Positions 7,228 through 63,884 are shown, numbered from the stretch's first letter. The stretch: 64,000 nucleotides of DNA from Schleiferilactobacillus perolens DSM 12744 (GCF_001435585.1 NZ_AZEC01000007.1:4122-68121), one strand, 5' to 3'. Notes: generated by a model not told the origin, from the sequence alone. Numbers and translations: made by a program.

Positions 7228-7364
7228 GTACAGATGACTTAGTCGAATAGATAGGCACCCATCTACGGTACTCGTTCGTGGTAAATAACACATGCGAAAC
7301 AGTATCAGAATTCTGGCAAACGCAAACTTAGGTAAGCTATTAATGAATTCTTAACTTATACCGC

Positions 7365-7393
7365 TTGCAGTTCGAGATTCAGCGGCTTACTAT
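7365..7393 (+). promoter_or_regulatory. Sigma-A-type promoter of the first SH3b-repeat paralog
   Basis: TTGCAG, 17-nt spacer, TACTAT. Duplicated with the same spacing at 8442-8470. Confidence 0.5.
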
Positions 7394-7448
7394 GATTGTG
7401 ACAGAAAGATTACAAAAATGTTTCAGCTGTCATAAGGGGGATTTAGCA

Positions 7449-8219
7449 ATGAAGAAATCATTGATCGTTTTATTCAGTGCTGCGCTGCTCGGCTTAGGGG
7501 CGGCCACATTTTCTGCGCAACCCGCCGTAGCGGCCACTCACAATGTCACACGGACGAATCCGACAGACAACGACATCAGTCACAGCGATTTTGGTGTCGT
7601 CACGGTCGGTCCGCGGGCGGCAATGCTTTACACGGATCATCAGTTGACTAAGGCTGCTAACCGTACTTTACCTGCGGGTTCGCAGTGGCGTTATACCGTT
7701 CGCGGGATACAGAATTACAGCGATGGTTCAACTAAGGTTTGGTCTTACCGGGTCGGCACAAACTTATGGTTACCCGCAAGCGAGAGCAGTGTGCTATCTT
7801 ATCAACCTGGCTTCAGCATCTATCACCACGATATTGTCCAGGTTCTAAAAGGGGGCGCACCGGTTTACTCGGACATCGCATTGCAACATACGACTGGTCG
7901 AAAATTGCCAGCTGGTTCCCAGTGGCAGTTCGGTCGGGCGCTGATTAATGATGGCGGTCAACTCTATGGTTACCAGGTTGGCGGTAACGAATTCGTGGCG
8001 GCATCGAATACGACGCTCGTTCAACGGCGCGGTATTTTCACTGTGGGACATGCCAGTGCTTTTACGATTAATTCCGGTCGTGTTGTCGGACGACAATTGG
8101 CCGGTGGTTCCCGGTGGCAGACCAATCGCATTGTTTATATGCATGGTGGTTTCTATTACCAAGTGGCCACTGATCTGTATATTGGCGCCATTGCTGGGAC
8201 CTGGACGCCAAGCAAGTAA
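7449..8219 (+). CDS. Secreted protein of 3 GW/SH3b-type cell-wall-binding repeats, no catalytic domain
   Basis: Signal peptide MKKSLIVLFSAALLGLGAATFSAQPAVAA. Repeats have the pattern R.LP.GS.W…YYQVATN.W. RBS AAGGGGGA. Confidence 0.8.
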   Translation: MKKSLIVLFSAALLGLGAATFSAQPAVAATHNVTRTNPTDNDISHSDFGVVTVGPRAAMLYTDHQLTKAANRTLPAGSQWRYTVRGIQNYSDGSTKVWSYRVGTNLWLPASESSVLSYQPGFSIYHHDIVQVLKGGAPVYSDIALQHTTGRKLPAGSQWQFGRALINDGGQLYGYQVGGNEFVAASNTTLVQRRGIFTVGHASAFTINSGRVVGRQLAGGSRWQTNRIVYMHGGFYYQVATDLYIGAIAGTWTPSK

Positions 8220-8297
8220 TATATCTGGATAAAAGCGAACTAGACAGGCGCTAAGCGGTTGGATTCAATTCCGCAATAGATTATGAGAAACACAAAG

Positions 8298-8342
8298 AGA
8301 AGCTCTCAGTAGGCAAAACAGTCCACTGAGAGCTTCTTTTTG
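8298..8342 (+). terminator. Terminator between the tandem paralogs
   Basis: AGAAGCTCTCAGT…ACTGAGAGCTTCT followed by TTTT. Confidence 0.75.
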
Positions 8343-8441
8343 CGAATGGATACCGGACAAGACTGCTAGGAAGTCAAAAGTGCGAGGCCAATCAAAATGG
8401 ATACCCAGGTATGATGTTAACAAATTCTTAACTTATAGCGC

Positions 8442-8470
8442 TTGCAGTTGAGCGCCAGGTGGGCTACGAT
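8442..8470 (+). promoter_or_regulatory. Duplicated promoter of the second paralog
   Basis: TTGCAG, 17 nt, TACGAT. The flanking 110 bp are about 80% identical to 7340-7448. Confidence 0.5.
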
Positions 8471-8525
8471 AAATATGACAGTAGTGTTACAAATACATTT
8501 CAGCTGTCACAAAGGGGATTTAGCA

Positions 8526-9296
8526 ATGAAGAAATCATTTGTCGTATTATTCGGTGCCGTATTGCTTAGTTTCGGAGCAGTGGTGGTGGCTGCACAACCA
8601 GTTTCGGCGGCGACCAATGTCACTAGTTCTGTGACTGAGAAGTTTTCCCAGTCTGATGATTTTGGGGTCCTGACTGCACCAGATTATTCGCAGCAGCTCT
8701 ATACGGACGCCAAATTAACGAAACCGGCTAACCGAACGGTACCCGCATCGTCCAGATGGCGGTATACGGCCGTTTTAGGTGTTATTCGCGGTAATGACCC
8801 AGAGCGCACATATTCTTATCGCGTCGCCACGAATCTTTGGCTGCCGGCCGAGGGCGTACGTTTTTTGACCTCCTATCAGCCAGGTACCAGCGTCTGGCAT
8901 CACGATATTGTGCAAGTGAACAATAACGCGGGTGCGCGCGTTTATTCCGATCTAACTTTCAAGAAACCCACTGGTCGAGTGTTGCCTAAGGGATCGCGGT
9001 GGCAATTTGCCCGGGGTGTGACAAATCGGCTGGATGAATTAATTGGCTACCAGGTTGGCACTAATGAGTTTGTACTTGAATCAGATGCCAGCATTGTCCA
9101 GCGGCGGGGTGTTTTCACTGCCCAAAAGGGTGGAGCAGACATTGTGAACGGCCCCGGTACCGTCCAACGTAAAGTAGCGGGTGGTTCTCGTTGGCGTACG
9201 ACATCTGTCACTTTTATGCACAATCGCTTCTATTATCAAATTGCCACATATCTGTGGGTGGACAGTAATTTAGGCACTTGGATGCCCCAAAAATAA
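8526..9296 (+). CDS. Secreted SH3b/GW-repeat protein, paralog of 7449..8219
   Basis: MKKSFVVLFGAVLL signal peptide, three repeats, identical RBS and 5' leader. Confidence 0.8.
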   Translation: MKKSFVVLFGAVLLSFGAVVVAAQPVSAATNVTSSVTEKFSQSDDFGVLTAPDYSQQLYTDAKLTKPANRTVPASSRWRYTAVLGVIRGNDPERTYSYRVATNLWLPAEGVRFLTSYQPGTSVWHHDIVQVNNNAGARVYSDLTFKKPTGRVLPKGSRWQFARGVTNRLDELIGYQVGTNEFVLESDASIVQRRGVFTAQKGGADIVNGPGTVQRKVAGGSRWRTTSVTFMHNRFYYQIATYLWVDSNLGTWMPQK

Positions 9297-9318
9297 TGCA
9301 CCACGAGGAGAATAAACC

Positions 9319-10356
9319 ATGAAGAAATCATTCGTCTTTCTGTGTAGTGTGGCACTGCTTACTGTCGGTGTGACAACAGCAAGTGCTGTGCCGGTGCATG
9401 CGGCCGGCAACGATACGGAAATTACCGATACCACGGATTCATTAGCTGTTTTAAACAAGACTGGCTACATTTACTTCCGTCACGGGGAGGGGGTCCTCAG
9501 CGCATACAAGGATCCAGAACTGAAGATCTTTGGTTCGGAAGTGATTCATTTTGCCCAACGTTACATGACCAACCAAGCCGTCGCCGCCTACGATCAAATT
9601 GCCACGAATACCAAAACAAATCAGGTGGTGGCTTACCACATTCCTGATGGCTGGGTGGGGCTCGATTCCTGGACTGCTGAAGACCTCAACCAATATGCCG
9701 CAGAAAATGATTTTGGCGTGCTCACAATGGGCAAACAGGCACAGCAATTATATACCGATTCCAAATTATTGACGCCTGCCAACCGGACATTAGCCCCCGG
9801 TACCGCATGGCGGTATGGTGCGAAAGAGACCATTACGTACAAATATTCCGGCAAGGCGGCTGATTATGCCTATCAAGTGGGTACTAATCTCTGGCTGCCG
9901 GCGAGTGTTGTGGTGTCCAAACAGAGCTATCGTTATGGTTACAGCTACTGGACTCACGACATCTTGCAAGTGAGTAATCCGGCCGGGGCCAAGGTTTATG
10001 CCCAAGGTGACTGGTATAATCCAACCTCTAAAACACTACCGTACAATTCAAGATGGCAGTTTGGCCAGGTAGTCATGAGTATTGACGGTGATGTGCTGGG
10101 CTTCCAAGTTGGTGGAAATCAATTTGTGAAAGCAGCGGACGTTACGGTCTCCGATAGACCGGGCATCTTTACGATCACCAGGGCGAACGGTGCAGCAACG
10201 ATGCGCAGGGACACCGTACCGACCGGCAAAAAGTTGGCCAAGGGTTCTCGCTGGCGCACGACTGGCAGACTTTATCTTCCTGGTGGTTTCTACTATCGGG
10301 TGGCCACGAACGTGTATGTGTCACCCGGTGATGGTAAATGGGTAGCCGCTAAGTAA
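9319..10356 (+). CDS. Secreted protein with an N-terminal unknown domain plus 3 SH3b/GW repeats
   Basis: Signal peptide MKKSFVFLCSVALLTVGVTTASAVPVHAA. Repeat motifs NRTLAPGTAWRY…YQVGTNLWL and further copies. Confidence 0.8.
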   Translation: MKKSFVFLCSVALLTVGVTTASAVPVHAAGNDTEITDTTDSLAVLNKTGYIYFRHGEGVLSAYKDPELKIFGSEVIHFAQRYMTNQAVAAYDQIATNTKTNQVVAYHIPDGWVGLDSWTAEDLNQYAAENDFGVLTMGKQAQQLYTDSKLLTPANRTLAPGTAWRYGAKETITYKYSGKAADYAYQVGTNLWLPASVVVSKQSYRYGYSYWTHDILQVSNPAGAKVYAQGDWYNPTSKTLPYNSRWQFGQVVMSIDGDVLGFQVGGNQFVKAADVTVSDRPGIFTITRANGAATMRRDTVPTGKKLAKGSRWRTTGRLYLPGGFYYRVATNVYVSPGDGKWVAAK

Positions 10357-10373: not shown

Positions 10374-10406
10374 GGCTCCAGTGTTTACCCACTGGGGCTT
10401 TTTTTG
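10374..10406 (+). terminator. Terminator after the paralog array
   Basis: GGCTCCAGTG…CACTGGGGC followed by TTTTTTT. Confidence 0.7.
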
Positions 10407-11609: not shown

Positions 11610-11680
11610 TGCTTTCGGGTCAGGTACATGATTGTGGTAAAATGTAGCCATTATTGTGCAGTAAGGAAAAGAGGAAGACT

Positions 11681-14141: not shown

Positions 14142-14151
14142 TAAAAATCGT

Positions 14152-14277: not shown

Positions 14278-15918
14278 GTGCAGAAAAAAGTTTGGATAAC
14301 CGCCAGCATTGCGCTGGCGTTGGCTGGGGCGGGGGCAGTGGTCACCAGCAACCTGGCTGGGGTGTCACCGGCAGCGATCGTTTATGCTGCGGAAAACTGG
14401 TATAACCAACCCGTATACTCGGAACGTTCCAATGCTGTGATCGATACGCGCGGGGTTAAAGGTATCGAAAACAACCAATATGGGTATGGCGATTCGAATC
14501 CAGGAACGTATACTGTGACGGCAGGAACGAACATTGGTGCCAAGTGGCGGACCGCATTCTTCTTACATGCGGGCGATATTGTCAGCAACAATAATCCCAG
14601 CGGTAAGAACCAGACCTATTTTGGTAATGGTGCGCCGCAGGGAGTGACCATGGATAAAGCTGGGAATATGTACATCGCGATTTCTCGGCGCAACAGCAAT
14701 TGGGCCACCAGCGGTTATTTGTATCAAGGGTATATTATGCGGCTTGATCCGTTTGCCATCGATACACTGATCAAGAACCCGAAATTACTGCGGACCAACC
14801 CCCAATCACTGATTAAGGCTAACCACGTGCGTTTCTCCGATGTGGACGGCGCATTTGCCAGCGGCAGTTTGGCCTATGACCCAGCGACGGACACAGTCAA
14901 ATTCTTCGTCGCATACAGCCGGACAGATTCTGCCTTCATGGCGACCCACCCGATTCAGTTGGCCACGGTTAATGCCCAATCCTTACAGCGCACGGGGACA
15001 GTGAAGTTCGATCTGTACGATTCCGTCTTGAAGCGATATGAGGCGCAACCTAACACCCTGGCGTTTGATAATAACGGCAACTTTTACTCAGTGGGGGCCG
15101 CTTCTTTGAATACATCCAATGGCTCAGCGTACATCACATTGCGCGGGGTTCCGACTGGTGGCGGCCACTATTCTGTCAGTCAACTCGGAATGTCTATCAA
15201 ACCAATTCTGGCCAACCAATTGCAGGGCATTTCAATTGATAATGATCGACTGTATATCAATTCGAATGCCGCTTATCTCAGTATTGATCTGAATAATTTT
15301 GCTAAAAACGCGAATAATCCGAGTATGGCGGCCAGTGCCAATAACTGGATGAATGTCGAAGTAAATCGGATTTCAGCAAATCGTGAAGCAGAAAATGTCG
15401 TGGCCCATGATGGTGTCAAATACATGATGCTGACTTCGCCCAGTGAAGTATTGATGAATGGCGATCGTACTGGTGGCGGTTCAACGACGCCGGTACAGCC
15501 AGCGAAGAAGACCCTGTATATTAGCGCACCAGGCGGCGTTAACGCCTTTGTTCAGCCTGGCAGCGGGGCCACTAGCCGCCATTTCGCCTTTGGGTCGCAT
15601 TGGATTTATACCGATGTAAAGACAGTCAATGGGGCAACGTATTACCAAATTGACACCAACTTGTGGATTAAGGATGTCGATATGAGCTTCACTAAGCCCG
15701 GCGCTGTGGTCCGGAACGGGATTGTACAAGCTTATGCGGCCAACAATGGCGGCATTGCCCTTTGGAGCGATTATCAGAGTCCGCGCCGACCGAGTAAGAT
15801 CATTAAGAGCGGTTCAAAGTGGAAATATAGCATGACGGCTCAATATGACGGTACGACTTGGTATAAAGTGGGTACCAACGCATGGCTGGATGGAAACGGG
15901 GCACGCGTGATTAAATAG
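14278..15918 (+). CDS. Secreted or membrane-anchored protein: unknown 400-aa domain plus 2 C-terminal SH3b/GW repeats
   Basis: GTG start after GGGAGGGA. N-terminal hydrophobic helix. C-terminal motifs …GSHWIY…YYQIDTNLWI and GSKWKY…WYKVGTNAWL. Confidence 0.7.
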   Translation: MQKKVWITASIALALAGAGAVVTSNLAGVSPAAIVYAAENWYNQPVYSERSNAVIDTRGVKGIENNQYGYGDSNPGTYTVTAGTNIGAKWRTAFFLHAGDIVSNNNPSGKNQTYFGNGAPQGVTMDKAGNMYIAISRRNSNWATSGYLYQGYIMRLDPFAIDTLIKNPKLLRTNPQSLIKANHVRFSDVDGAFASGSLAYDPATDTVKFFVAYSRTDSAFMATHPIQLATVNAQSLQRTGTVKFDLYDSVLKRYEAQPNTLAFDNNGNFYSVGAASLNTSNGSAYITLRGVPTGGGHYSVSQLGMSIKPILANQLQGISIDNDRLYINSNAAYLSIDLNNFAKNANNPSMAASANNWMNVEVNRISANREAENVVAHDGVKYMMLTSPSEVLMNGDRTGGGSTTPVQPAKKTLYISAPGGVNAFVQPGSGATSRHFAFGSHWIYTDVKTVNGATYYQIDTNLWIKDVDMSFTKPGAVVRNGIVQAYAANNGGIALWSDYQSPRRPSKIIKSGSKWKYSMTAQYDGTTWYKVGTNAWLDGNGARVIK

Positions 15919-47331: not shown

Positions 47332-48156
47332 ATGAAAGTCAGTAAAGTTTTGGCCTCACTGTTTTTATTGGGCGGTATCGTTCTAGCGGGTGGTGTAATG
47401 AATTCAGCATCCGCCCCAGTCCACGCAGCCACGACCGAACCAGCTATTATTCAATTAAACGATTCAACCCATATGCAGACCTATCAGGATGATGGCACAC
47501 AGAATCCCGGTTTGACGGATAAATTTACCGCAGGATCCCGTTGGCGGGTCACCGGGACAAAAGTCGGCAAAATGGGCGACGATTTATACATCCGGGTGGC
47601 CACCAACACTTGGCTGTATTACAACACCTTTGACGATGCAAATGCCACGCTGATCGCTCAGTTGCGGGCCGATGTCCAAGCCTATTCCCAAAAACAGGGC
47701 AACTTGGGCGGCTATGTCATTCCCACCCAAGTACTCAATGACATCGGCAAAACGCTGGCAAGCACACCCGTGGTAGAACGGCCGGGCAGTACGAAAGTGT
47801 TACGGCAATTACCGGCCGGGACTCGCTGGCGCTTGACCGCCCGAGCGTATAAGCCGTTGGTTACCAAAACCGATGACAGCGACGTCTATTTCCAAATTGC
47901 GACGGGTCAGTGGATCAACATCAAATATTTGGGGATTGAAATACGGTGGGGGTCACCGTTCATCGTGAACAATACGCCGGTCCAAGCCTACCGCTTTAAC
48001 GCCGCCACGCTGCAAATGGACGCCACGACACGTCAGCTCAAGCCATATACGGCATGGCGCATTAATGGATCGCACTACCTGACAGTGCGCGGTCAAGCTT
48101 ACTTGCTGGTTGGACAAAACGAATGGGTGAAGCCGCAGCAAGGTTCTAACAAGTGA
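47332..48156 (+). CDS. Secreted SH3b/GW-repeat-only protein (array member 2)
   Basis: MKVSKVLASLFLLGG signal peptide. RBS GAGGAGG. Confidence 0.8.
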   Translation: MKVSKVLASLFLLGGIVLAGGVMNSASAPVHAATTEPAIIQLNDSTHMQTYQDDGTQNPGLTDKFTAGSRWRVTGTKVGKMGDDLYIRVATNTWLYYNTFDDANATLIAQLRADVQAYSQKQGNLGGYVIPTQVLNDIGKTLASTPVVERPGSTKVLRQLPAGTRWRLTARAYKPLVTKTDDSDVYFQIATGQWINIKYLGIEIRWGSPFIVNNTPVQAYRFNAATLQMDATTRQLKPYTAWRINGSHYLTVRGQAYLLVGQNEWVKPQQGSNK

Positions 48157-48172: not shown

Positions 48173-49030
48173 ATGAAAATCAGCAAAGTTTTGGCATCGA
48201 TGCTGCTTTTATTGGGTGTGAGTGCAGCTAGTCAAGTAATCGCACAAAACAGTGTGCCAGTACAGGCTGCGACGGTTTCTGAACCGGCCGTGATTAATTT
48301 GCATGGTGATCGCGCAATCCTTTATGCTTGGCACAATGATGGGATGAAATATGCGCCCATGCTTCGTTCCTTGTGGGGTGGCAGCTGGCGGGTGACCGCT
48401 GTGCGGATTGATGCTCAGACGGGGGATATTTATTTCCGTGTGGCAACGGATGTTTGGATGAAATATTATTACTACAATACGCGTCCGACCCTCAACAAGA
48501 CGTTGGTGCAGCAAATGCAAAATACCGCCCAACAATATTCTAAGAGTCAGGGCAATATCGGTGGCTTTGTAAACAATGGGGATATTGATTACAAAATTGC
48601 GATCGTTAAGACATTAGCGAAGACACCGATCGTCGCTCAGCCCGGAAGTACCAAGGTGATCCGGACTTTACCAGAGGGAACACGCTGGCGGATTACGCAA
48701 CAGTCTTATCGATTGCTGCTCAGCGCAACCGATAATTCGCCAATCTATTATCAAGTCGCCAACCACCAATGGGTGGATGCCAAATATGTCGCGCAAGAGA
48801 TCAAAGCGTATCGGATTCCTGTACTTTCATTAGAGCAGGGGTTACAGGCCTATCGGTTTGACAACGCCAAACTCAAGATGATTCCGACGCGGTGGTTGGC
48901 ACCGCGCCAGAATTGGGGAATTGATTACCGGTATAGCCCGAGAATCAATTACACGTTTAAAGGGAGCTATTACTTCCAAATTGGGGCAAATGAATGGGTG
49001 ACTGGTGAAGGGGGTCAAGTAGGTAACTAG
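48173..49030 (+). CDS. Secreted SH3b/GW-repeat-only protein (array member 3)
   Basis: MKISKVLASMLLLLG signal peptide. Confidence 0.8.
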   Translation: MKISKVLASMLLLLGVSAASQVIAQNSVPVQAATVSEPAVINLHGDRAILYAWHNDGMKYAPMLRSLWGGSWRVTAVRIDAQTGDIYFRVATDVWMKYYYYNTRPTLNKTLVQQMQNTAQQYSKSQGNIGGFVNNGDIDYKIAIVKTLAKTPIVAQPGSTKVIRTLPEGTRWRITQQSYRLLLSATDNSPIYYQVANHQWVDAKYVAQEIKAYRIPVLSLEQGLQAYRFDNAKLKMIPTRWLAPRQNWGIDYRYSPRINYTFKGSYYFQIGANEWVTGEGGQVGN

Positions 49031-50063: not shown

Positions 50064-51545
50064 TCAAACAAACGGCCGGCCGACACCAGCGATCCAAGAC
50101 CGTTGCCAATTGGTCACCGGTTGAACCATGATCTTAGGCGGCCAGGATTCGATCACCATGTTGTTGCCCAGATAGATGGCCACATGCCAGATCAAACCGC
50201 TGCTCGGATCACGATAGAAAATCAGGTCGCCCCGTTGGCGTTCACCATAGGAAACCTTCTTCAGCAACGGGTTTGCCCAGAGATTGCGTGATTCCCATTC
50301 GTACCCAGGTTGGGCATGCCGGATGGAGGAAGAAGGTAACGGATTGATGCCGCTGCTGTACAGTGCCTGCATGACGAGGCCGCTGCAGTCGGTACCGTAA
50401 GCCGGAGAAGTGGAAGCACCCACGATATAAGGTTTACCCAGATACTGGTAAGCTGTACTGATCATGGCTTCAATATGATCACTGCGGGTACTGTTTTCGT
50501 TGGTCTTCAGCGGTGATACATACCCATCAATGGTGTAGAAATCATCACGTTTGAAGCCCATGTTCGTCCAGAACTTAACATCCACTTGTCCGGTAACTGG
50601 CAAGCCCCAACGCCGTTGATAGTACATGATCTTGTTGACGGCGGTTTGGTTCAGGTTGGCGTAAGAACGATCCATCCCTAACCACCAAAGCGTCAGCCAA
50701 GTCTTGATCCCTTCAGAGCCTAAGCGTAGATTGTAGCCCACTTTACCCTGGGGCAAGATTTGGGTGTTGCTGATTTGCCAATACTGACCAGGGTTTTGAT
50801 AAACCGCCTGGCGTTGCGCGCCACCGGCATTGATCCATTGATTGGCGCCGATTTGATACCATTGGGCACCATTTGAAGAACTGCCCGTCGCAGTGACTTT
50901 CCACTTCGAACCCTTCGCCAGCCAGCGGCCGCTGAATTTATATTGGAAACCAGTCCATAATGGCATGTCTTGGACCAGCGTGACGGTGAAGCTGTTCTTG
51001 TGAGCGGCACTGTGGCTCAGTTCACCCACATCGTTGGCGCTGACCCATTGGTTATCGCCAATTTGATACCAGGTTTGACCATTGGCCGTGGCGGTGTAAG
51101 TGGCAATCCACACCGATCCGGTGTTCAAAGTCCGACCGCTCTTTTGGGTACCCATACCGTTATACAATGGTGCATCGTGCTTTATCCCAATGACGTATCG
51201 GGCGGGCAGTTTTTGCCAAGTGCTGCGTAAAACAACGTCGCTAGCAAGGACATATTGCGTCGCGCTGACCCGATAATAATCCTTACCGGCCACGGTGGTT
51301 TTCCCTGTCAGGCGCCACGCAGAATTAGCTTTCAGTGTGCCATCTTTGACAGCAGTCGTGTTCTGCAGGGTGTAAATAGCCGCCCCATTCGGTCCAACGA
51401 CTCCCACATCGTTAAATGCTGCGACACCAACTGTTGGCGTGCTGCTCCCTGTAGCCGCTTGGGCAGTCGGGATTGTCGTCAACAGCGGCGCGGCGGCGAG
51501 AATGGCTAAAATAGCCATCGTCAGCCGCTTGCTTGCTTTCTTCAT
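50064..51545 (-). CDS. NlpC/P60-family hydrolase with N-terminal SH3b repeats
   Basis: C-terminal GKPYIVGAS…TDCSGLV…H motif. Signal peptide MKKASKRLTMAILAILAAAPLL. RBS GGGAGA. Confidence 0.8.
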   Translation of the reverse strand: MKKASKRLTMAILAILAAAPLLTTIPTAQAATGSSTPTVGVAAFNDVGVVGPNGAAIYTLQNTTAVKDGTLKANSAWRLTGKTTVAGKDYYRVSATQYVLASDVVLRSTWQKLPARYVIGIKHDAPLYNGMGTQKSGRTLNTGSVWIATYTATANGQTWYQIGDNQWVSANDVGELSHSAAHKNSFTVTLVQDMPLWTGFQYKFSGRWLAKGSKWKVTATGSSSNGAQWYQIGANQWINAGGAQRQAVYQNPGQYWQISNTQILPQGKVGYNLRLGSEGIKTWLTLWWLGMDRSYANLNQTAVNKIMYYQRRWGLPVTGQVDVKFWTNMGFKRDDFYTIDGYVSPLKTNENSTRSDHIEAMISTAYQYLGKPYIVGASTSPAYGTDCSGLVMQALYSSGINPLPSSSIRHAQPGYEWESRNLWANPLLKKVSYGERQRGDLIFYRDPSSGLIWHVAIYLGNNMVIESWPPKIMVQPVTNWQRSWIAGVGRPFV

Positions 51546-51649: not shown

Positions 51650-53050
51650 ATGCAGAAGAAAAAATGGGTGAGTTTAGCAACATTTGGGGCACTACTACTG
51701 GCACTGGGCGGGTTGAGTGCACACCGGGCGGAGGCCACTGTCGCTAATGGTGTGTTGTATCTGAATCGACCGGCCACCATGTATCATGGCTACGATGATA
51801 CGCGGCAAAGCACCGGTCAAACATTGAAGGCCGGTTCGCAGTGGAAGATCACGGGTCAACAAGAGTCCGCTGGCGTGACCTGGTATCAGGTAGCCACCAA
51901 TACCTGGGTCACCGAGAATGCGCAATTTAACCCGCAACAATCTTACGGCGTGGTCCGGTTGAACCAGACCGCAACCATTTATACGGTGCCGGGGGACAAG
52001 AATACCAGCACCGGCCGCAATCTGAATGCCGGTTCCAGTTGGCGCGTGACGGACCAGCAGGTCGTTGCGGGCGTGACGTGGTACCAAGTCGCCACCAACA
52101 CCTGGGTGACCCAGAACTATGCGTTTAATCCAATTCCGTATCAAACGGTGACCCTAGCCCAACCGACCACGCTATACAACGGTTATGGGGCAGCGCGGCA
52201 ATCCACCGGCCGGACGCTGGCCATCGGCAGTGCCTGGAAGATTACCCATGCCGCCACGGAGAATGGGGTGACGTGGTACGAGATCGGCCCCAATCAGTGG
52301 ATCACGACCAACACCAGCTACAACCCTGTCCCGGATCACTTTGACAATGCCATTATGACGATTACCGTCAATACGAAGAATGGCGCCAATGTGTATTCGA
52401 GTTATCAAGCGGGCCGCTGGTGGGTGAATCGCCTGTCCTTTGGCTCTCGGTGGAAAGTGACACGACAAGCAGTCGCCAATGATGGTTCCCTCTGGTATCA
52501 GGTGGGGACGAATCAATGGGTGAGCGCCACTGGCGGGATTGCTACCGGCGTGGTGTATCCGAACAGCGCCTACATCAACGGTGTCCCGTTAATTTCCCAG
52601 TTGCCGGAATTGCCCAATGGCTGTGAAATCACCGCCGTCACCATGATGCTGCGGTACGCCGGGGCTAATGTGAATAAGATGCAGCTGGCCCGGGAAATGC
52701 CCCGGTCATCTAATCCCAATTATGGCTATATTGGCGATCCTTGGAATAATACCGGTATCACCATCTTTCCACCGGCGCTAATGAATATTGTGCAAAAATA
52801 TGCGGGCAATTCGATTAATATGACCGGCATGTCCTTTGATGCCATCCGCTACCAAGTGGGCATTCGTAAACATCCCGTGGTGGCTTGGATGACCATGCAT
52901 GGCTTCCCGTATCATGCGGTAGTCGTTACTGGGTATTCGGCCAGTAACGTCACGTACCTGGATTGCTGGACCAACAGTGTCGGGACGATGAGCATCGACG
53001 CGTTTGTCAATAATTGGCAAACTCAGAATCGCCGGGCGATCTCGTATTAA
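51650..53050 (+). CDS. 4 SH3b repeats fused to a C39-like papain-fold peptidase domain
   Basis: GCEITAVTMMLRYAG Cys motif and C-terminal His. RBS GGGAGA. Confidence 0.7.
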   Translation: MQKKKWVSLATFGALLLALGGLSAHRAEATVANGVLYLNRPATMYHGYDDTRQSTGQTLKAGSQWKITGQQESAGVTWYQVATNTWVTENAQFNPQQSYGVVRLNQTATIYTVPGDKNTSTGRNLNAGSSWRVTDQQVVAGVTWYQVATNTWVTQNYAFNPIPYQTVTLAQPTTLYNGYGAARQSTGRTLAIGSAWKITHAATENGVTWYEIGPNQWITTNTSYNPVPDHFDNAIMTITVNTKNGANVYSSYQAGRWWVNRLSFGSRWKVTRQAVANDGSLWYQVGTNQWVSATGGIATGVVYPNSAYINGVPLISQLPELPNGCEITAVTMMLRYAGANVNKMQLAREMPRSSNPNYGYIGDPWNNTGITIFPPALMNIVQKYAGNSINMTGMSFDAIRYQVGIRKHPVVAWMTMHGFPYHAVVVTGYSASNVTYLDCWTNSVGTMSIDAFVNNWQTQNRRAISY

Positions 53051-56349: not shown

Positions 56350-58776
56350 ATGAAGAATTCTTCAAAGGTTAAGTACTTTGGTGCTGTAGCCGCTGCTCTG
56401 TTGGCAGTAGCTCCGATTGCAGCTCCTGTAGTTAGCCAGATTGCTTCACCTGCTATTACACAGGCTGCTGATGCAGCAGACGTTGCTTTAACTTATGGCC
56501 AAGCTGATAATGTGAAGACCCAGTTAAACAATGATGCGTCGAGTTTCGTGATTAGTCATGATCAAGCTACTAAAAACGTGGCAGCGTGGCAGTCTTGGGT
56601 GAATGCAAATGCCCAAAACAACACTTCTACATCCAATATGCCTAATGCAAAAGATTGGTTGGGAACTGCTTTCAATACCGCAACTTCAGGGAACCCGTTT
56701 GTTAAGACTGCAACGACTGGTGCTGATATCTATTCACCGAAAAATGCAGATAATTCAAAGGCTAACGTTGGTTTAAGCTATACGGTTTCTGGTGGTTATG
56801 GGAACCAATTGTCCGCTAGCTCACAAACACAACAGATTGCAACGAACTTGCAATTAGCATCTATTGCTCAGGATGATTCCACTTATAATATTACGGTTAC
56901 TGCATACGATGTTCGTACGCAACAACCGTTAAAGGATTCAACTGGTGCAACAGTACAAAAGTCTTACAGTGTTACTATCCAAGGGACTAGCCCTGCACAA
57001 GCCACAGTTGCTTCTGGTACATTTAAGCCAGTAAACATTAAGGCTGGGGATAAGTTCCCTGGTGTGTTCGCTGATACAACAAGTGCTGCTGGTGATATCA
57101 CATTGACTGTCAATGGTAAGCCTGTTGCTATTAACGTTGCACAAGATGTTGAGAAACTTGGCTATGCTCAATCACAACCTGCTGATATTGGTACTGTAAC
57201 TCTTGCCATGAAGAATGGCATTGATGTGCTTGGCAATTACATTAATAAAGAAACCGGTTCTTGGACTGGTAATGGGGTTGCCTATCAGGTTGCTCAATTA
57301 GCTTCAAATAATCAGGCTATTGTCAGTTTAAAGGATTCCTTGAAGAACACTAAACCTGCTCTTCTTGGTGGAGACTTATGGTCCGATGGGGCAGGCAATC
57401 TGTTCCTGGTTCGTCCGGTTACAATTACTGATTCTGATTATAACCAGGCTTTGCCGACTGTATTTTATCAGTATCAAGCTACGCCTGCTAAACCAGTTCA
57501 ATATTGGGATGGCTCGACAGTTTATTTGACCACTGATGATGATGCCGCTTTGAACAAGTCCGGTGCACTTTTGACTCCTGATTTGGTTGCCGCTGCCGTT
57601 CGTGCAGTTGCTGTTGGCAAGAACTTAACTGCTAAACAGTCATCTACATCTGATGATCCTATTCCTACCGCAGATGGTAAAGGTTCTGTAACTTCTCTTG
57701 CTGATTTAGTAAAGGAAGTTAAGGCTGCTGCTGCTGCTGCTGGTGTCAATATTGGCAGTAGCTCAAATCAGTTTGATAAGTCTGCTTCTGTGTTGATCCC
57801 TGTTACCTTTACGAATGCTGCCAATTTGAAGACTACTGTCAAGATTCCTGTTACTCTTGATGCTACGACTCAGGGTGCTCCGGTATTCACATTTGCACAG
57901 GGTTGGGTACAAAATCCGACTGTTCAAGTTGGTCAACAGTTTAAAGCAACAGAAGGTATCTCTGCTTGGACTGATAGCAAACTGAATACGGCTATTGATC
58001 CAGTAGACTGGAAGATCGATGGTTCTGTTGATACAAGTAAAGCTGGCATTTACAACTTAACTTATACGATTACCAATCCTACGACTGGTAAGACTGCTCA
58101 ATTGAAGCGTACTGTTACTGTAACTGCTTCTGACAAATCTGTTTTTGAAAACACCAATGGTGTAATTTCTATTCAGACTTCAAAGGCCCCTCAGTACACT
58201 TACGATTCAGCTTCTGACAGCTTCAAGGTTGCTGACAGCTATACTCAATTGAAGTTAGCTTCTGCTTGGAAGTATAACCAAAAGGCTACTACTACGAATG
58301 GTGATGTTTACTACCGTGTAAGTGCTAATGGTTATGTTAAGGCAACTGACGTAACGACTGCTAAGGTTACTCCTCAGTTTGGTGTTGTAACTGTTAATAC
58401 CGACAACGGTACTAAGACTTACGCTAATACAACTAAGGATTCCGGCGCTGTACAAAGCATCAAGCCTGATACTGCTTGGAAGTTCTTCGCTGTTGCTGTT
58501 AACCCAGATGGCTCTCGTGCTTATCTGGTCGCTGACAATCAATGGATTCCTGCTTCTGACGTGGTTGAACGTGTTCAATCCGCTTCTGGCGTGTTCACTG
58601 TTGGTTCTGATGTAGCTCCGACATTCAATGGTTCTGGCTCTGTTGTTAAGGGCAAGACTTTGAAGGCTCGTTCCGCTTGGAAGGTTACCGGCGTTAAGAA
58701 TATTAACGGCCAACCTTACTATCGGATTGCTACTGACTTATATGTACGTGCCGATTACGGTTCTTACGCTAAGTAA
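56350..58776 (+). CDS. Large S-layer-like or major surface protein with 4 C-terminal SH3b repeats
   Basis: Signal peptide. T/A/S-rich. Much lower GC and T-ending codon bias than neighbouring genes. Big_3-like segment. Confidence 0.8.
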   Translation: MKNSSKVKYFGAVAAALLAVAPIAAPVVSQIASPAITQAADAADVALTYGQADNVKTQLNNDASSFVISHDQATKNVAAWQSWVNANAQNNTSTSNMPNAKDWLGTAFNTATSGNPFVKTATTGADIYSPKNADNSKANVGLSYTVSGGYGNQLSASSQTQQIATNLQLASIAQDDSTYNITVTAYDVRTQQPLKDSTGATVQKSYSVTIQGTSPAQATVASGTFKPVNIKAGDKFPGVFADTTSAAGDITLTVNGKPVAINVAQDVEKLGYAQSQPADIGTVTLAMKNGIDVLGNYINKETGSWTGNGVAYQVAQLASNNQAIVSLKDSLKNTKPALLGGDLWSDGAGNLFLVRPVTITDSDYNQALPTVFYQYQATPAKPVQYWDGSTVYLTTDDDAALNKSGALLTPDLVAAAVRAVAVGKNLTAKQSSTSDDPIPTADGKGSVTSLADLVKEVKAAAAAAGVNIGSSSNQFDKSASVLIPVTFTNAANLKTTVKIPVTLDATTQGAPVFTFAQGWVQNPTVQVGQQFKATEGISAWTDSKLNTAIDPVDWKIDGSVDTSKAGIYNLTYTITNPTTGKTAQLKRTVTVTASDKSVFENTNGVISIQTSKAPQYTYDSASDSFKVADSYTQLKLASAWKYNQKATTTNGDVYYRVSANGYVKATDVTTAKVTPQFGVVTVNTDNGTKTYANTTKDSGAVQSIKPDTAWKFFAVAVNPDGSRAYLVADNQWIPASDVVERVQSASGVFTVGSDVAPTFNGSGSVVKGKTLKARSAWKVTGVKNINGQPYYRIATDLYVRADYGSYAK

Positions 58777-60572: not shown

Positions 60573-60617
60573 AAGCAGGTCAATTGTCAGTTCTTGGCAT
60601 ATTGACCTGCTTTTCTT
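60573..60617. terminator. Terminator between convergent genes
   Basis: AAGCAGGTCAAT…ATTGACCTGCTT followed by TTTC. Confidence 0.7.
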
Positions 60618-60682
60618 TACGTATGATGAACGATGACTGATCGAGAATCAACCATGTGTCACGCGAGGCAGACGACACACAG

Positions 60683-61567
60683 CTAGTAACCGTGCAAACG
60701 CCTTAACAGATGTCTCATATCGGCCAAGTCCTCTTGGTTTTTATCCGGCCCAAAAAACACAGAATCGGCGAGAGATTCCTGCAGTGCCAGGAGTGGATAG
60801 TCCCGTAATTCGAGTAGGCGCGCTTGATTCGGTTTTGCGTCAGGATTGCGCGCGACCCATTGCTTCATAACTGGACTCAAAGGAATGCGTGGATGAATCA
60901 AACCACTTTGACTGGCCATGGACTGGATGAATGTCCAAATTTCCTGACCGATAGCTAATGCCACATCGATGTGTTCGTTAATGTCCCGGTGATAATAGGG
61001 TAACGAAAGTGCATGACAATCACGACCAAAATAAAAATCACATGTAGATGTATGCTGATGAGTTCTCGCTAGGTGGTGTAACGCCACAAAACTTGGCGTG
61101 CCATTTCGAGTACCGCTGAGCGGCAGAAAGATTTTCCGGCCGAACACGGTGGGCAGTGGCAGTCGGCTGTGTGGCCTGTGTTTCTCCAATAGCAGAAGCC
61201 GCGGCAAAATCAACGTGAGTATATGGGTACGATGAATCGCGTCCATGATGATGCGCTTGGGCGTCAAGATACAGGCACTACAATGTCCGTCTTTGTACCA
61301 AACCAAGCTGCCAACCCGTTCTGGACAATAGTCGGCGATGTATAAGATGGCGCAGATGTCCGGGGTGAGAGGACAAGTGGGTAATGGCGATCCAGCGGCG
61401 TGCGCATGGATACGAATTTGCTTTCCAGATAATGGGAAACCTGAGCCATCGGTTGTTTTCAAGTAAGGCACTCCTTTTCGCAATTTGCGAATGATTATTT
61501 TGCGAGCATGATCCCTGTTCCCCTCCAAAAGGATACAATACCTTATGGTAAACCGGTTGCCAACCAT
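60683..61567 (-). CDS. Hypothetical Cys/His-rich protein (start uncertain)
   Basis: 294-aa ORF between terminators. No recognisable domain. Confidence 0.45.
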   Translation of the reverse strand: MVGNRFTIRYCILLEGNRDHARKIIIRKLRKGVPYLKTTDGSGFPLSGKQIRIHAHAAGSPLPTCPLTPDICAILYIADYCPERVGSLVWYKDGHCSACILTPKRIIMDAIHRTHILTLILPRLLLLEKHRPHSRLPLPTVFGRKIFLPLSGTRNGTPSFVALHHLARTHQHTSTCDFYFGRDCHALSLPYYHRDINEHIDVALAIGQEIWTFIQSMASQSGLIHPRIPLSPVMKQWVARNPDAKPNQARLLELRDYPLLALQESLADSVFFGPDKNQEDLADMRHLLRRLHGY

Positions 61568-61958
61568 AAATTGTTCGCCAAGAGTTCAAAATAGACAAAA
61601 AAAGACGGTGACAGGGCTGATATTAAGGCGTTTAATCAAAAAAATATCAGAAATCCGCGTTAAAGGAGAAGAACAATTAATATACAGATAAAATTATTCG
61701 TTCGGAAATAGACACCTATGTTAGTTTTCTCGCCTAAAGACAGTGACTGTGGTTCAGACGCTTTATTAGACAGCTTTTTATCAAATAGCCAGATTGATTT
61801 CGCAACCTCCACGAGAGAACTAAAGTAATCTGTATTTTTGTGAGGCCGGTAATTTGTCTAAGCTAAAAATTGCGATGGTCATTGCTACGAAATTTTCCAA
61901 TAGGGTGCTATATTATGGCTGGTGGGAAGAGTCAGATCGTGGGAAAGAGGAGAATGGT

Positions 61959-63884
61959 ATGTCGATTCATGTGAAGAAGTGGACGCTGATCGGGATTATC
62001 AGCGTGCTGGTTGGCATTGGGGTAGTTGCCACGCCTAATGTACTTGCTGGTACTGATTCAGGGGCACACAACCAGCTGCAAACCACGCCGCTTGTGCAGA
62101 ATTCGTTATTGGGTCCCGGATATTATGATGACCAGGCGGAAAACTCGATTCCGCAAAATCAGTTGATGGCGCCAGCGCTGTTTTCTAATAACGATCAATT
62201 CCTGATGGATATCAAGCCTGGTGCTTTGGCAAGTTGGCAAAAGGGTGTGCTGCCTTCAGTGACTGTAGCCCAAGCGATCGTGGAGAGTGGCTGGGGCACC
62301 TCCCAGTTGGCGATTCAAGCGAATAATCTGTTCGGTATTAAAGGGGTGTACAACGGCCAGTCCATCTGGATGAATACCCGCGAAGTAATTAACGGACAGA
62401 GTGTGGTACAATCTGCCCAGTTTCGCAAGTATCCCAATCGTTCTGATTCGATCGTGGATCACGCAGACTTTTTAAACCAGAACTCTAGATATCGTAATTT
62501 GCTCGGTGTCCGCGATTACCGGACATTTGCGTCTTTACTTCAACAAGACGGTTATGCGACGGATCCCAATTATAGCAATGCGTTGATCAGCGTCATTCAA
62601 AGCAACAACTTGCAGGAATGGGATACAGAGGCATTTTCTGGCGTCGTGAAGAATGTCAGTTATGCGATGCAAATTAACCAGACTAATCGGCACGATGGCC
62701 TATACAGCAGTATCCCAGCAACGGGAATTGGTTCTCAATTCGTCGGTGCGGGGTACGCGGCTTCCTTTGACCAACAAGTGGTGGCAGTGAGTAAAGAAGT
62801 TGTGCTTAATGGTGTGACTTGGGTGAACTTCACCGTGGGCGGGAAGTCTTGCTGGATGGATAGGAATGGCCTCCGTTCTGGCAACTTCGGGATTGTTAAA
62901 GATGTGCATTACGCCATGCAAATCAATCAAAGCAGTCGACACGATGGCCTATACAGTCAAGTTCCCGCCGCAGGGATTGGCGCACAATTCGTCGGTGCGG
63001 GGTATGCATCCTCCTTTGACCATCAGGTGGTCGCCATATCCAAAGAGACCGTGATCAACAACACGACCTGGGTGTATATCACGATCGGCGATAAATCGTA
63101 TTGGATGGACAAAAATGGTCTGATTGTCGGCCAATTTGGTATTGTGAAAAACGTCAACTATGCAATGCAGATCAACCAATCCAACCGACATGATGGCTTA
63201 TATCGCAGTGTCCCTGCCGCAGGGAGCGGCCCCCAATTCGTTGGGGCTGACGAATATGCCCAGACATTTGATCAACAGGTGGTGGCAATTACCAAAGAAG
63301 CCGTGATTGGTGATACGACGTGGGTCTATTTCACCATTAACGGTAAAGCCTACTGGATGGATCAAAAGGGTTTGGTTGGCGGCTTTGGCATCGTCAAAAA
63401 CGTCAATTACGCCATGAAAATCGATCAAACCAGCCGGCATGATGGTCTGTACACCAGTGTTCCCGCGCCCAGCATCGGCTTGCAATTTGTCGGTGCAGCC
63501 GCTGCTCAGACAATTGATCAACAAGTCGTCGCCGTGACTAAAGAGGTGGTCATCAACGGTGAGACGTGGGTCTATTTCACGACGAACGCCGGCAAGTCCT
63601 ATTGGATCGACAAGAAGGGCCTGGTTGGTGGTTATGGTATTGTCCAGAATGTGAATTATAAGATGCAGATCAACCAGGCTAACCGCCATGATGGTTTGTA
63701 CAGCAGCGTGCCAGCACCAGGAATTGGCTCGCAATTCGTTGGTGCGGGTGAATATGCCAGTTCGTTTGACCGTCAAGTGGTTACAGTCAGCAAAGAGGTC
63801 GTTATTCAAAATGTGACGTGGGTGTGTGTTAGCATTGCGGGTAAGACGTATTGGATGGATAAGAGCGGGCTCCTCTCTGCTTAA
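61959..63884 (+). CDS. GH73 N-acetylglucosaminidase with 5 C-terminal SH3b repeats
   Basis: AQAIVESGWGTS…NNLFGIKG catalytic motif. Five 80-aa repeats VKNVNYAMQINQ…RHDGLY…WVYFT…YWMD. RBS AAGAGGAG. Confidence 0.85.
   Translation: MSIHVKKWTLIGIISVLVGIGVVATPNVLAGTDSGAHNQLQTTPLVQNSLLGPGYYDDQAENSIPQNQLMAPALFSNNDQFLMDIKPGALASWQKGVLPSVTVAQAIVESGWGTSQLAIQANNLFGIKGVYNGQSIWMNTREVINGQSVVQSAQFRKYPNRSDSIVDHADFLNQNSRYRNLLGVRDYRTFASLLQQDGYATDPNYSNALISVIQSNNLQEWDTEAFSGVVKNVSYAMQINQTNRHDGLYSSIPATGIGSQFVGAGYAASFDQQVVAVSKEVVLNGVTWVNFTVGGKSCWMDRNGLRSGNFGIVKDVHYAMQINQSSRHDGLYSQVPAAGIGAQFVGAGYASSFDHQVVAISKETVINNTTWVYITIGDKSYWMDKNGLIVGQFGIVKNVNYAMQINQSNRHDGLYRSVPAAGSGPQFVGADEYAQTFDQQVVAITKEAVIGDTTWVYFTINGKAYWMDQKGLVGGFGIVKNVNYAMKIDQTSRHDGLYTSVPAPSIGLQFVGAAAAQTIDQQVVAVTKEVVINGETWVYFTTNAGKSYWIDKKGLVGGYGIVQNVNYKMQINQANRHDGLYSSVPAPGIGSQFVGAGEYASSFDRQVVTVSKEVVIQNVTWVCVSIAGKTYWMDKSGLLSA

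What the first reader, a model, noticed from the sequence alone, without database searches (positions are those of the whole stretch)
7340..63884. Very large GW/SH3b-repeat secreted protein family, including two tandem arrays with no enzymatic domain
At least 17 genes in 64 kb encode signal-peptide proteins carrying the same repeat, about 65 aa long with the pattern R.LP.GS.WR….YYQVATN.WI. These are 7449, 8526, 9319, 14278, 26582, 32668, 40081, 44596, 46490, 47332, 48173, 49085, 50064, 51650, 56350 and 61959; the 61959 protein (GH73, Acm2-like) carries the divergent 80-aa VKNVNYAMQINQ…RHDGLY…WVYFT…YWMD form and is the sixteenth gene in this list, leaving one more not enumerated here. Seven of them (7449-10356, 46490-49936) are repeat-only proteins arranged as tandem paralog arrays with short spacers. 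This density and the repeat-only architecture suggest a non-covalently bound surface proteome, perhaps an S-layer-associated or teichoic-acid-binding scaffold or decoy system, not ordinary autolysins.
Basis: partly seen in the sequence, partly recalled or inferred. Interest (0 to 1): 0.7.

Follow-up and report, generated by a model that had tools for sequence, protein, structure and literature searches.

The report
SLAP-domain wall-anchored surface proteins, Schleiferilactobacillus
A lactic acid bacterium (Schleiferilactobacillus perolens) packs 16 secreted cell-wall-binding proteins into 64 kb, most using the already known SLAP/SlpA "non-covalent attachment" repeat, and eight of them are just three repeats with no enzyme, an annotated but functionally unstudied type.

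Summary
All 16 listed genes exist; no 17th was found. They cover about 20 kb of the 64 kb. Each has a ribosome-binding site and a Sec-type signal peptide.

The repeat is not one family:
- 14 genes carry the Pfam SlpA/SLAP (NCAD/TAB) domain, PF03217.
- One gene (32668) carries SH3_3, a remote relative.
- One gene (61959) carries five true GW domains with no detectable sequence similarity to the rest.

Eight genes are repeat-only: arrays 7449-10356 and 46490-49936, plus the solitary 40081. Each encodes a signal peptide plus three SLAP repeats, with mature pI 9.4-9.9. AlphaFold models of both array types match the teichoic-acid-binding domain of Lactobacillus SlpA (7QEH) best. They are not pseudogene fragments: dN/dS is 0-0.36 between strains, and the same architecture occurs in at least six other Lactobacillaceae genera, already annotated as "SLAP domain-containing protein".

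The other SLAP genes fuse the repeats to GH25, NlpC/P60, C39-like peptidase, beta-lactamase-family, Ig-like or unknown domains, so several are ordinary autolysin-type proteins.

The phosphate-binding motif of L. acidophilus SlpA (YxY...KxxN) is absent from all 42 repeats, so the ligand is unproven.

Verdict: new members of a known kind, in a genus not known to form S-layers. Interest is moderate to low.

The parts
7449..8219 (+). Array A gene 1: signal peptide + 3 SLAP-like repeats, 256 aa, mature pI 9.8, no other domain
   Evidence: Pfam SlpA is sub-threshold at 17.1 bits. AlphaFold model pLDDT 83.5; best PDB match 7QEH, the LTA-binding domain of SlpA.
8526..9296 (+). Array A gene 2: signal peptide + 3 SLAP-like repeats, 256 aa, pI 9.9. 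It has its own conserved promoter-like/5'UTR region, duplicated from gene 1
   Evidence: No direct Pfam hit. Homology rests on hhalign of A3 vs A4 at 99.1%.
9319..10356 (+). Array A gene 3: signal peptide + ~90-aa N-terminal insert with no detectable repeat + 3 SLAP-like repeats, 345 aa
   Evidence: A terminator-like hairpin follows at 10374-10399.
14278..15918 (+). 546-aa secreted protein: ~400-aa N-terminal domain of unknown function + 2 C-terminal SLAP repeats, pI 9.4. It lies inside a wall-glycopolymer gene cluster
   Evidence: No PDB sequence relative for the N-terminal part.
26603..27973 (+). GH25 muramidase + 3 C-terminal SLAP repeats. The start is corrected from 26582
32668..33897 (-). 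3 x SH3_3 (PF08239, a different family that is a remote relative of the SLAP repeats) + NlpC/P60 endopeptidase
   Evidence: SH3_3 64 bits, NlpC/P60 89 bits. hhalign against the SLAP repeats gives 96%.
40081..40872 (-). Solitary repeat-only gene: signal peptide + 3 SLAP-like repeats, 263 aa, pI 9.55
   Evidence: It is 100% conserved between strains, with dS 0.027.
44596..46368 (+). 3 N-terminal SLAP repeats + beta-lactamase/DD-peptidase-family domain
   Evidence: SlpA 52.8 bits, 3 stretches; Beta-lactamase 131.8 bits. The repeat cassette is collinear with that of 50064.
46490..47308 (+). Array B gene 1: signal peptide + SLAP repeat + helical linker + 2 SLAP repeats, 272 aa. The allele is hypervariable between strains
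   Evidence: (SlpA 23.4 bits).
47332..48156 (+). Array B gene 2, repeat-only, 274 aa
   Evidence: Model pLDDT 78, pTM 0.71, helix at residues 105-121. Best PDB match is 7QEH.
48173..49030 (+). Array B gene 3, repeat-only, 285 aa
49085..49936 (+). Array B gene 4, repeat-only, 283 aa. A terminator-like hairpin follows at 49973-49992
50064..51545 (-). 3 N-terminal SLAP repeats + NlpC/P60 endopeptidase
   Evidence: SlpA 66.9 bits; NlpC/P60 49.9 bits.
51650..53050 (+). 4 N-terminal SLAP repeats + Peptidase_C39_2 domain
56350..58776 (+). 808-aa surface protein: unknown N-terminal region + Ig-like domain (Big_3 / Bact_surface_Ig-like) + 3 C-terminal SLAP repeats
61959..63884 (+). GH73 glucosaminidase + 5 GW domains (PF13457). 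No sequence relation to the SLAP repeats was detected
   Evidence: GW 246.5 bits, 5 stretches.

Best explanation
The window is chromosomal DNA of Schleiferilactobacillus perolens, rich in cell-envelope genes.

Fourteen genes encode Sec-secreted proteins held on the cell wall non-covalently by tandem SLAP domains (also called SlpA, NCAD or TAB; Pfam PF03217). These are SH3b-like beta modules of about 70 aa. In the Lactobacillus acidophilus group they bind glycerol-phosphate teichoic acids. Here the module usually comes as a triplet and has been shuffled onto different cargo: GH25 muramidase, NlpC/P60, a C39-like peptidase, a beta-lactamase/DD-peptidase-family domain, an Ig-like surface protein and one unknown domain. 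Two further wall hydrolases in the window use sister modules instead, SH3_3 and GW.

Eight genes encode nothing but a signal peptide and three SLAP repeats. They are basic, about 25-27 kDa when mature, and arose by whole-gene tandem duplication.

Shown here: domain identity, fold, intactness, purifying selection, and conservation of the architecture across genera.

Inferred: the proteins bind an anionic wall glycopolymer (teichoic acid or a related phosphodiester-containing polymer, possibly the product of the adjacent gene cluster at 11654-24395). The repeat-only proteins would then act as non-catalytic wall-coating or site-occupying proteins. They would share, and probably compete for, the ligand used by the SLAP-anchored hydrolases and by phage proteins carrying similar modules.
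For: Organism: close homologues are named S. perolens.

Domain identity:
- Pfam SlpA scores above or at its cut-off in 44596, 50064, 51650, 56350, 26582 and 46490.
- Repeats from the repeat-only genes match repeats from the enzyme-linked genes by hhalign at 99.1%, E 7e-19.
- The repeat profile hits the solved SlpA/SlpX TAB domains 7QEH, 8ALU, 7QFG and 8AOL.
- 11 of 23 array-A family members and 2 of 10 array-B family members hit PF03217 directly.

Fold: the AlphaFold models (pLDDT 83.5 and 78.2) both have 7QEH, the 'LTA-binding domain of SlpA', as top PDB match. Next come InlB GW domains, Atl repeats and phage endolysin SH3b wall-binding domains.

Real genes:
- SD sequence, signal peptide, pI 9.4-9.9.
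- dN/dS of 0-0.36 against a second strain.
- Repeats are position-specific within each family, which indicates whole-gene duplication.

Distribution: 84 of the 183 retrieved sequences (the listed representatives plus close cluster members) are repeat-only, most often with 3 repeats. They are named 'SLAP domain-containing protein' in Schleiferilactobacillus, Lacticaseibacillus, Companilactobacillus, Agrilactobacillus, Bombilactobacillus and 'Lactobacillus' selangorensis.

Known function of the domain: teichoic-acid binding and general non-covalent anchoring (PMC11181022; PMC4702614).

Context: a TagD/LicD/Wzx/polymerase/TagA/glycosyltransferase cluster lies in the window.
Against: - The SlpA phosphate-binding motif YxY...KxxN is absent from all 42 repeats. 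They carry a different signature, R.L..GS.W[RK]. The ligand could therefore be another wall polymer or peptidoglycan.
- Four of the eight repeat-only proteins have no direct Pfam hit, and three are below the cut-off.
- The solved TAB domain is a pair of motifs, whereas these are triplets.
- No expression, localisation or binding data exist.
- The role proposed for the repeat-only proteins is inference only.
- The genome-wide copy number could not be obtained.
Confidence: 0.78

Rival explanations
1. The repeat-only proteins are themselves S-layer (or S-layer-like coat) subunits that self-assemble on the wall. This would make S. perolens an unrecognised S-layer former.
For: Their size (25-27 kDa mature) and pI (9.4-9.9) fall in the range I recall for Lactobacillus S-layer proteins; that range was not checked here. 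They carry the S-layer anchoring domain. In SlpX a third SlpA motif without phosphate-binding residues sits in an assembly domain (PMC11181022). There are several paralogues, and one allele is strain-variable, as is often seen for surface coats.
Against: The three repeats cover essentially the whole mature protein, so there is no separate self-assembly domain like SlpA domains I and II. Schleiferilactobacillus (harbinensis) and Companilactobacillus are listed among genomes with no synteny for genes matching the S-layer protein queries (PMC10221546). No strong promoter was detected by the consensus scan.
Confidence: 0.08
2. The modules bind peptidoglycan or a neutral wall polysaccharide rather than teichoic acid. 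They would work like classical SH3b or SH3_3 domains of autolysins and endolysins.
For: The TAB phosphate-binding motif is absent from 42 of 42 repeats. The repeats are detectably related to SH3_3. Fold matches include the peptidoglycan-binding lysostaphin SH3b and endolysin wall-binding domains.
Against: The best sequence and structure matches are the SlpA TAB domains. The repeat-only proteins are strongly basic, which fits an anionic ligand. Arg and Lys are conserved in R.L..GS.W[RK].
Confidence: 0.2
3. The repeat-only ORFs are decayed fragments of larger hydrolase genes, i.e. pseudogenes.
For: In a second strain the NlpC/P60-SLAP gene is split into a 189-aa SLAP ORF and a 300-aa NlpC/P60 ORF beside an IS110 element. 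Such fragments can therefore arise.
Against: All eight have their own SD sequence, start codon and signal peptide, and end right after the third repeat. dN/dS is 0-0.36. The same full-length architecture is conserved at 25-50% identity across several genera.
Confidence: 0.02

Closest known systems
SLAP / NCAD / TAB domain proteins of the Lactobacillus acidophilus group (Pfam PF03217). These include SlpA, SlpB and SlpX, CdpA, the LysA muramidase and 'NCAD-containing uncharacterized extracellular proteins'
   Same: They share the Pfam family and the SH3b-like fold; the best PDB matches are 7QEH, 8ALU and 8AOL. The domain is used in tandem as a non-covalent wall anchor fused to muramidases, peptidases, Ig-like surface proteins and proteins of unknown function. 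The proteins have basic pI and Sec signal peptides.
   Different: The host genus is not known to form an S-layer. Triplets are the norm here rather than pairs. The YxY...KxxN phosphate-binding motif is absent and is replaced by R.L..GS.W[RK] with an invariant Trp. In several enzymes the module sits at the N-terminus. Many members have no cargo at all.
'SLAP domain-containing protein' entries from NCBI PGAP/UniRef in Schleiferilactobacillus shenzhenensis, Lacticaseibacillus pabuli and zhaodongensis, Companilactobacillus farciminis and allii, Agrilactobacillus composti, Bombilactobacillus folatiphilus and 'Lactobacillus' selangorensis
   Same: These are direct full-length homologues of the repeat-only genes: a signal peptide plus 2-5 repeats and nothing else.
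   Different: They are known only as automatic annotations, with no functional study. The four-gene array B family was found only in S. perolens.
GW modules of Listeria InlB/Ami/Auto and the repeats of staphylococcal Atl (LTA-binding SH3-like repeats)
   Same: They show the same fold class in the fold search (1M9S, 4EPC) and follow the same logic: several tandem copies give non-covalent, avidity-based binding to teichoic acid. The gene at 61959 is a genuine member, with five PF13457 copies.
   Different: No sequence similarity was detected between the window's GW repeats and its SLAP repeats. The other 15 genes are not GW proteins.
SH3b wall-binding domains of phage endolysins and tail proteins (for example the LysPBC5 wall-binding domain 6ILU; phrog_12493)
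   Same: Tandem SH3b-like wall-binding modules match by structure and weakly by sequence.
   Different: Those are phage lysis or adsorption proteins attached to catalytic or tail domains. The genes here are chromosomal and secreted by the Sec pathway.

Membership tests
Pfam PF03217 SlpA/SLAP (NCAD, TAB) domain | Sequence match to the family HMM at or above the gathering score (23 bits) | tested here: met
   Met for 44596 (52.8), 50064 (66.9), 51650 (45.5), 56350 (47.4), 46490 (23.4) and 26582 (23.0). 14278 is just below at 22.9..
Pfam PF03217 SlpA/SLAP domain, tested on the repeat-only genes specifically | Sequence membership of the repeats in 7449, 8526, 9319, 40081, 47332, 48173 and 49085 | tested here: inconclusive
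   Direct Pfam scores are 13.8-17.7 bits or absent. However, hhalign against the window's bona fide SLAP repeats gives 99.1%, E 7e-19. In addition, 11 of 23 array-A family homologues hit PF03217, the best at 5.6e-20, and 2 of 10 array-B family members do.
SlpA teichoic-acid-binding (TAB) domain | SH3b-like beta fold superposable on the solved TAB domains | tested here: met
   7QEH is the top Foldseek PDB hit for both models (E 4e-5 and 3e-5, probability 1.0). 8ALU, 8AOL and 7QFG are also hit..
SlpA teichoic-acid-binding (TAB) domain | Phosphate-binding motif YxY....KxxN (PMC11181022) | tested here: not met
   A regex search over 42 repeats found YxY in 1, KxxN in 0 and both in 0. The residues aligned to 7QEH differ.
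SlpA teichoic-acid-binding (TAB) domain | Two motifs forming an internal pseudo-dimer | tested here: not met
   Twelve of the 14 SLAP genes carry 3 repeats, one carries 2 and one carries 4.
SlpA teichoic-acid-binding (TAB) domain | Experimental binding to LTA, WTA or GroP oligomers | not testable with these tools
   This needs ITC, NMR or cell-wall pull-down experiments.
GW domain (PF13457) | HMM match above the gathering score | tested here: met
   Met only by 61959-63884: 246.5 bits, 5 copies. The other 15 genes have no GW hit. hhalign of SLAP vs GW repeats gives a probability of 0.1%.
SH3_3 (PF08239) | HMM match above the gathering score | tested here: met
   Met only by 32668-33897: 64.2 bits, 3 copies. 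It is remotely related to the SLAP repeats: hhalign 96%, E 2e-9.
Lactobacillus S-layer protein (self-assembling SLP) | A self-assembly region distinct from the anchoring repeats | tested here: not met
   In the repeat-only proteins the three repeats span from about residue 45 to the C-terminus. Array B adds only a 17-residue helix.
Lactobacillus S-layer protein (self-assembling SLP) | Formation of a 2-D lattice on cells | not testable with these tools
   This needs electron microscopy. The genus is listed among genomes with no synteny for genes matching the S-layer protein queries (PMC10221546).

The most novel reading that the evidence does not exclude
The cargo-less triple-SLAP proteins form a dedicated, strain-variable 'wall-occupancy' system. 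By saturating the anionic wall polymer they would set where and how strongly the SLAP-anchored autolysins act. They could also mask the receptor used by phages whose tail or lysin proteins carry the same module. The sharply bounded hypervariable allele at the first gene of array B would be the footprint of that arms race.
Probability: 0.12. Interest if true: 0.6.

Novelty: new member of a known kind. Interest (0 to 1): 0.3.

Why it matters
The finding shows that the SLAP/NCAD anchoring system, so far studied almost only in S-layer-forming Lactobacillus species, is heavily used in a beverage-spoilage genus with no recognised S-layer. There it occurs in a sequence variant that lacks the published phosphate-binding motif.

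The finding also defines a small set of cargo-less triple-repeat proteins. These are compact, basic and probably wall-binding, and they would be convenient for two purposes: testing what SLAP domains bind outside the acidophilus group, and serving as surface-display anchors.

None of this overturns current understanding. The domain, its role and the repeat-only architecture are already catalogued.

Tried and rejected
- A 17th family member was sought with an iterated window-specific HMM over all six-frame ORFs of 60 aa or more. None was found.
- The ~90-aa N-terminal insert of 9319 was tested as a possible fourth degenerate repeat. hhalign gave a probability of 0.5%, so this was rejected.
- A genome-wide or genus-wide copy number was attempted three ways. 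The genome-contig scan returned only two distant loci. A word-indexed search with the single-repeat profile returned nothing. The search with the triple-module profile returned only 14 proteins. The count stays unknown.
- Exact look-ups of P0174, P0116 and the 9319 protein found no contigs.
- NCBIfam gave no family for any SLAP protein tested.
- The PDB sequence search with the full-length array-A profile returned only noise, and the N-terminal domain of 14278 has no PDB relative.
- The 5'UTR hairpin conserved upstream of 7449 and 8526 is not significantly more stable than shuffled sequence, with z of -1.3 and -1.6.
- The pseudogene-fragment hypothesis was rejected.
- The idea that the GW repeats are a divergent form of the same repeat was rejected at the sequence level.

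Full report

The window has about 49% GC. Each has a Shine-Dalgarno-like sequence 6-12 nt upstream. Each also has a typical Sec signal peptide: a K/R-rich start, a hydrophobic core and an A-x-A end.

One listed coordinate is wrong. 26582 is an ATC codon, and the likely start of that gene is the ATG at 26603.

The 16 genes occupy about 20 kb of the 64 kb, calculated from the coordinates.

I built an HMM from 15 repeats picked by a motif regex and iterated it on the window's own six-frame ORFs. It detects 2-4 copies in 15 ORFs, with per-domain E-values of 1e-10 to 1e-22. Nothing else scores below E=1. So there are 16 genes, counting the GW protein, and the unlisted '17th' gene does not exist.

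The repeat consensus is A..Y...R.L..GS.W..T...G...YQV.TN.W..A, with one invariant Trp.

**2. What is the repeat?**

Pfam assigns three different families.

- PF03217 (SlpA; called the SLAP or NCAD domain in the literature) scores well above its cut-off in 44596, 50064, 51650 and 56350. It is at the cut-off in 26582 and 46490 and just below it in 14278. It is sub-threshold or absent in the remaining repeat-only genes.
- PF08239 (SH3_3, three copies) is found in 32668.
- PF13457 (GW, five copies, 246 bits) is found in 61959.

Profile-profile comparison clarifies how these relate.

- The 24 repeats of the repeat-only genes match the 18 repeats of the enzyme-linked genes at 99.1% probability, E 7e-19.
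- The SH3_3 repeats are a remote relative: 96%, E 2e-9.
- The GW repeats show no detectable similarity: 0.1%.

The enzyme-linked repeat profile hits the solved SlpA and SlpX teichoic-acid-binding domains 7QEH, 8ALU, 7QFG and 8AOL.

AlphaFold models were made for one gene of each array. The model of 7449 has pLDDT 83.5. The model of 47332 has pLDDT 78.2 and pTM 0.71. Both are all-beta, with three SH3-like units. Array B adds one helix, at residues 105-121, between units 1 and 2.

For both models the top PDB match is 7QEH, the 'LTA-binding domain of SlpA'. After it come InlB GW domains, Atl repeats, lysostaphin SH3b and phage endolysin wall-binding domains.

'GW/SH3b' is therefore right at the superfamily level. 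The precise family for 14 of the 16 genes is SLAP.

**3. Anatomy**

Cargo domains are as follows:

| Gene | Cargo | SLAP repeats |
|---|---|---|
| 26603 | GH25 | C-terminal |
| 50064 | NlpC/P60 | N-terminal |
| 51650 | Peptidase_C39_2 | four, N-terminal |
| 44596 | beta-lactamase/DD-peptidase family | N-terminal |
| 56350 | Ig-like surface protein | C-terminal |
| 14278 | unknown ~400-aa domain | two, C-terminal |

The triple cassettes of 44596 and 50064 are collinear and 46% identical, although the catalytic domains differ. This indicates module shuffling.

Eight genes contain only a signal peptide and three repeats: 7449, 8526 and 9319 (array A), 40081 (solitary, minus strand), and 46490, 47332, 48173 and 49085 (array B). 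9319 also carries an unrelated ~90-aa N-terminal insert.

- Their mature proteins have pI 9.4-9.9.
- Paralogues are 41-51% identical within each array; the solitary 40081 is only about 26% identical to array A.
- Within each family, repeat 1 resembles repeat 1, repeat 2 resembles repeat 2, and so on. Whole genes were therefore duplicated, rather than repeats being added one at a time.
- Terminator-like hairpins flank each array: 7198-7221 and 10374-10399 for array A, and 46379-46400 and 49973-49992 for array B.
- Array B, with spacers of 16-54 nt, looks like a single operon.
- Genes 1 and 2 of array A each carry a conserved ~120-nt upstream region.

**4. Organism, distribution and integrity**

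Close homologues are named Schleiferilactobacillus perolens. The exact contig is found only in SRA-derived assemblies.

A full HMMER scan of 1.84 billion representative proteins with the array-A profile found 654 hits at E<=1e-3 and 155 at E<=1e-10.

I examined 183 retrieved sequences (the listed representatives plus some close cluster members). Of these, 84 are repeat-only, with 3 repeats the most common number. Named examples are 'SLAP domain-containing protein' in these taxa (see also L002):

- S. perolens and S. shenzhenensis
- Lacticaseibacillus pabuli and L. zhaodongensis
- Companilactobacillus farciminis and C. allii (a similar repeat-only ORF pair in C. mindensis locus L002, carries no annotation here)
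- Agrilactobacillus composti
- Bombilactobacillus folatiphilus
- 'Lactobacillus' selangorensis

The array-B family was found only in S. perolens.

Compared with a syntenic second strain (L004), all tested genes have dN/dS of 0-0.36. Together with the intact starts and signal peptides, this rejects the pseudogene-fragment idea.

**5. How it most likely works**

In L. acidophilus and L. amylovorus, two SlpA motifs form the TAB domain. It binds LTA with micromolar affinity and GroP oligomers more weakly. The same domain anchors non-S-layer proteins such as a lysin and a muramidase (PMC11181022). Exoproteomics named it the 'non-covalent attachment domain' and found it to be the most abundant domain in LiCl extracts, including in uncharacterised proteins (PMC4702614; PMC5682318).

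By homology and fold, the S. perolens proteins should be secreted and held on the wall through multivalent binding of their repeats to a wall glycopolymer. The window also contains a wall-glycopolymer cluster that could make the ligand. This link is inference. The cluster comprises:

- a TagD-like cytidylyltransferase at 11654
- a PMT_2 protein at 15953
- a GT2 glycosyltransferase at 17761
- LicD at 18725
- a Wzx flippase at 19519
- an O-antigen-ligase-like polymerase at 20972
- TagA/WecG at 22573
- a GT4 glycosyltransferase at 23307

One caveat matters. The published phosphate-binding motif YxY...KxxN is absent from all 42 repeats. A different conserved basic/aromatic signature is present instead. 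The ligand may therefore differ from poly-GroP.

For the cargo-less proteins, my most likely reading is that they are non-catalytic wall-coating or site-occupying proteins. They would share the ligand of the SLAP-anchored hydrolases. I hold this reading with low confidence, because nothing here tests it.

**6. Comparison with known systems, and novelty**

The domain, its anchoring role, its fusion to autolysins and Ig-like proteins, and even the repeat-only architecture are already known or annotated.

Four things are new here:

- The genus. Schleiferilactobacillus and Companilactobacillus are listed among genomes with no synteny for genes matching the S-layer protein queries (PMC10221546).
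- The local density of these genes.
- The triplet organisation.
- The divergent motif.

This makes the set new members of a known kind. The 'scaffold or decoy' idea remains open.

**7. Scores**

Interest is 0.3. The most novel reading not excluded is a strain-variable wall-occupancy or phage-masking system, with probability about 0.12 and interest 0.6 if true.

Noticed in passing
window 46600-47470 (mature part of 46490-47308 plus the first ~140 nt of 47332-48156); compared with L004 10100-10990: Between two otherwise 97-100% identical S. perolens strains, a sharply bounded ~870-bp tract is only 61-75% identical. Gene 1 of array B is 69% identical at the protein level, with dS 1.28 against 0.03-0.05 in the flanks and dN/dS 0.18. 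The alternative allele is not derived from the other three paralogues. A third type, P0006, at ~42% identity, exists in another strain. This looks like allelic replacement at a surface-protein hotspot.
   Followed up: partly
L004 13800-16634 (orthologous to window 50064-51545): In the second strain an IS110-family transposase sits next to the NlpC/P60-SLAP gene. That gene is split into a 189-aa SLAP ORF and a 300-aa NlpC/P60 ORF.
   Followed up: no
window 53144-54394: A beta-lactamase-family gene without SLAP repeats forms a second divergent patch between strains: 93.5% aa identity and dS 0.51, against ~0.03 in neighbouring genes.
   Followed up: no
window 11654-24395: A wall-glycopolymer biosynthesis cluster is interleaved with the SLAP genes. 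It comprises a TagD-like cytidylyltransferase, PMT_2, GT2, LicD, a Wzx flippase, an O-antigen-ligase-like polymerase, TagA/WecG and GT4. It is a candidate source of the ligand.
   Followed up: partly
window 7330-7448 and 8405-8525: The two regions share a ~120-nt conserved upstream segment. It has promoter-like hexamers (TTGCAG ... TAC[TG]AT) and a 5'UTR hairpin (TGACAG...CTGTCA) just before the SD sequence. The hairpin's stability is not significant against shuffles, with z of -1.3 and -1.6.
   Followed up: partly
window 14278-15918 and 40081-40872: The SLAP repeats of these proteins hit PHROG 12493, annotated 'tail protein', at E 6e-10 and 7e-8. Some phage tail proteins therefore carry the same wall-binding module.
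   Followed up: no
window 6029-7177: This gene encodes a bacterial archaeo-eukaryotic release-factor-like (baeRF family 6/3/7) protein and lies directly upstream of array A.
   Followed up: no
window 37063-37914 (-), 43409-44443, 58881-60524, 60683-61567 (-): These are sizeable ORFs with no Pfam family. 43409 has only a weak NCBIfam MAP_0585 hit. The 56-60 kb region has lower GC (0.42-0.45) and a strongly negative AT skew around 58-60 kb.
   Followed up: no
L002 9662-10927 (Companilactobacillus mindensis DSM 14500): Two adjacent ORFs (151 and 230 aa) are made only of similar repeats (G..TG.TLP.GS.WK...YYQ..TN.W). This may be one repeat-only gene interrupted by a frameshift or an assembly error.
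   Followed up: no
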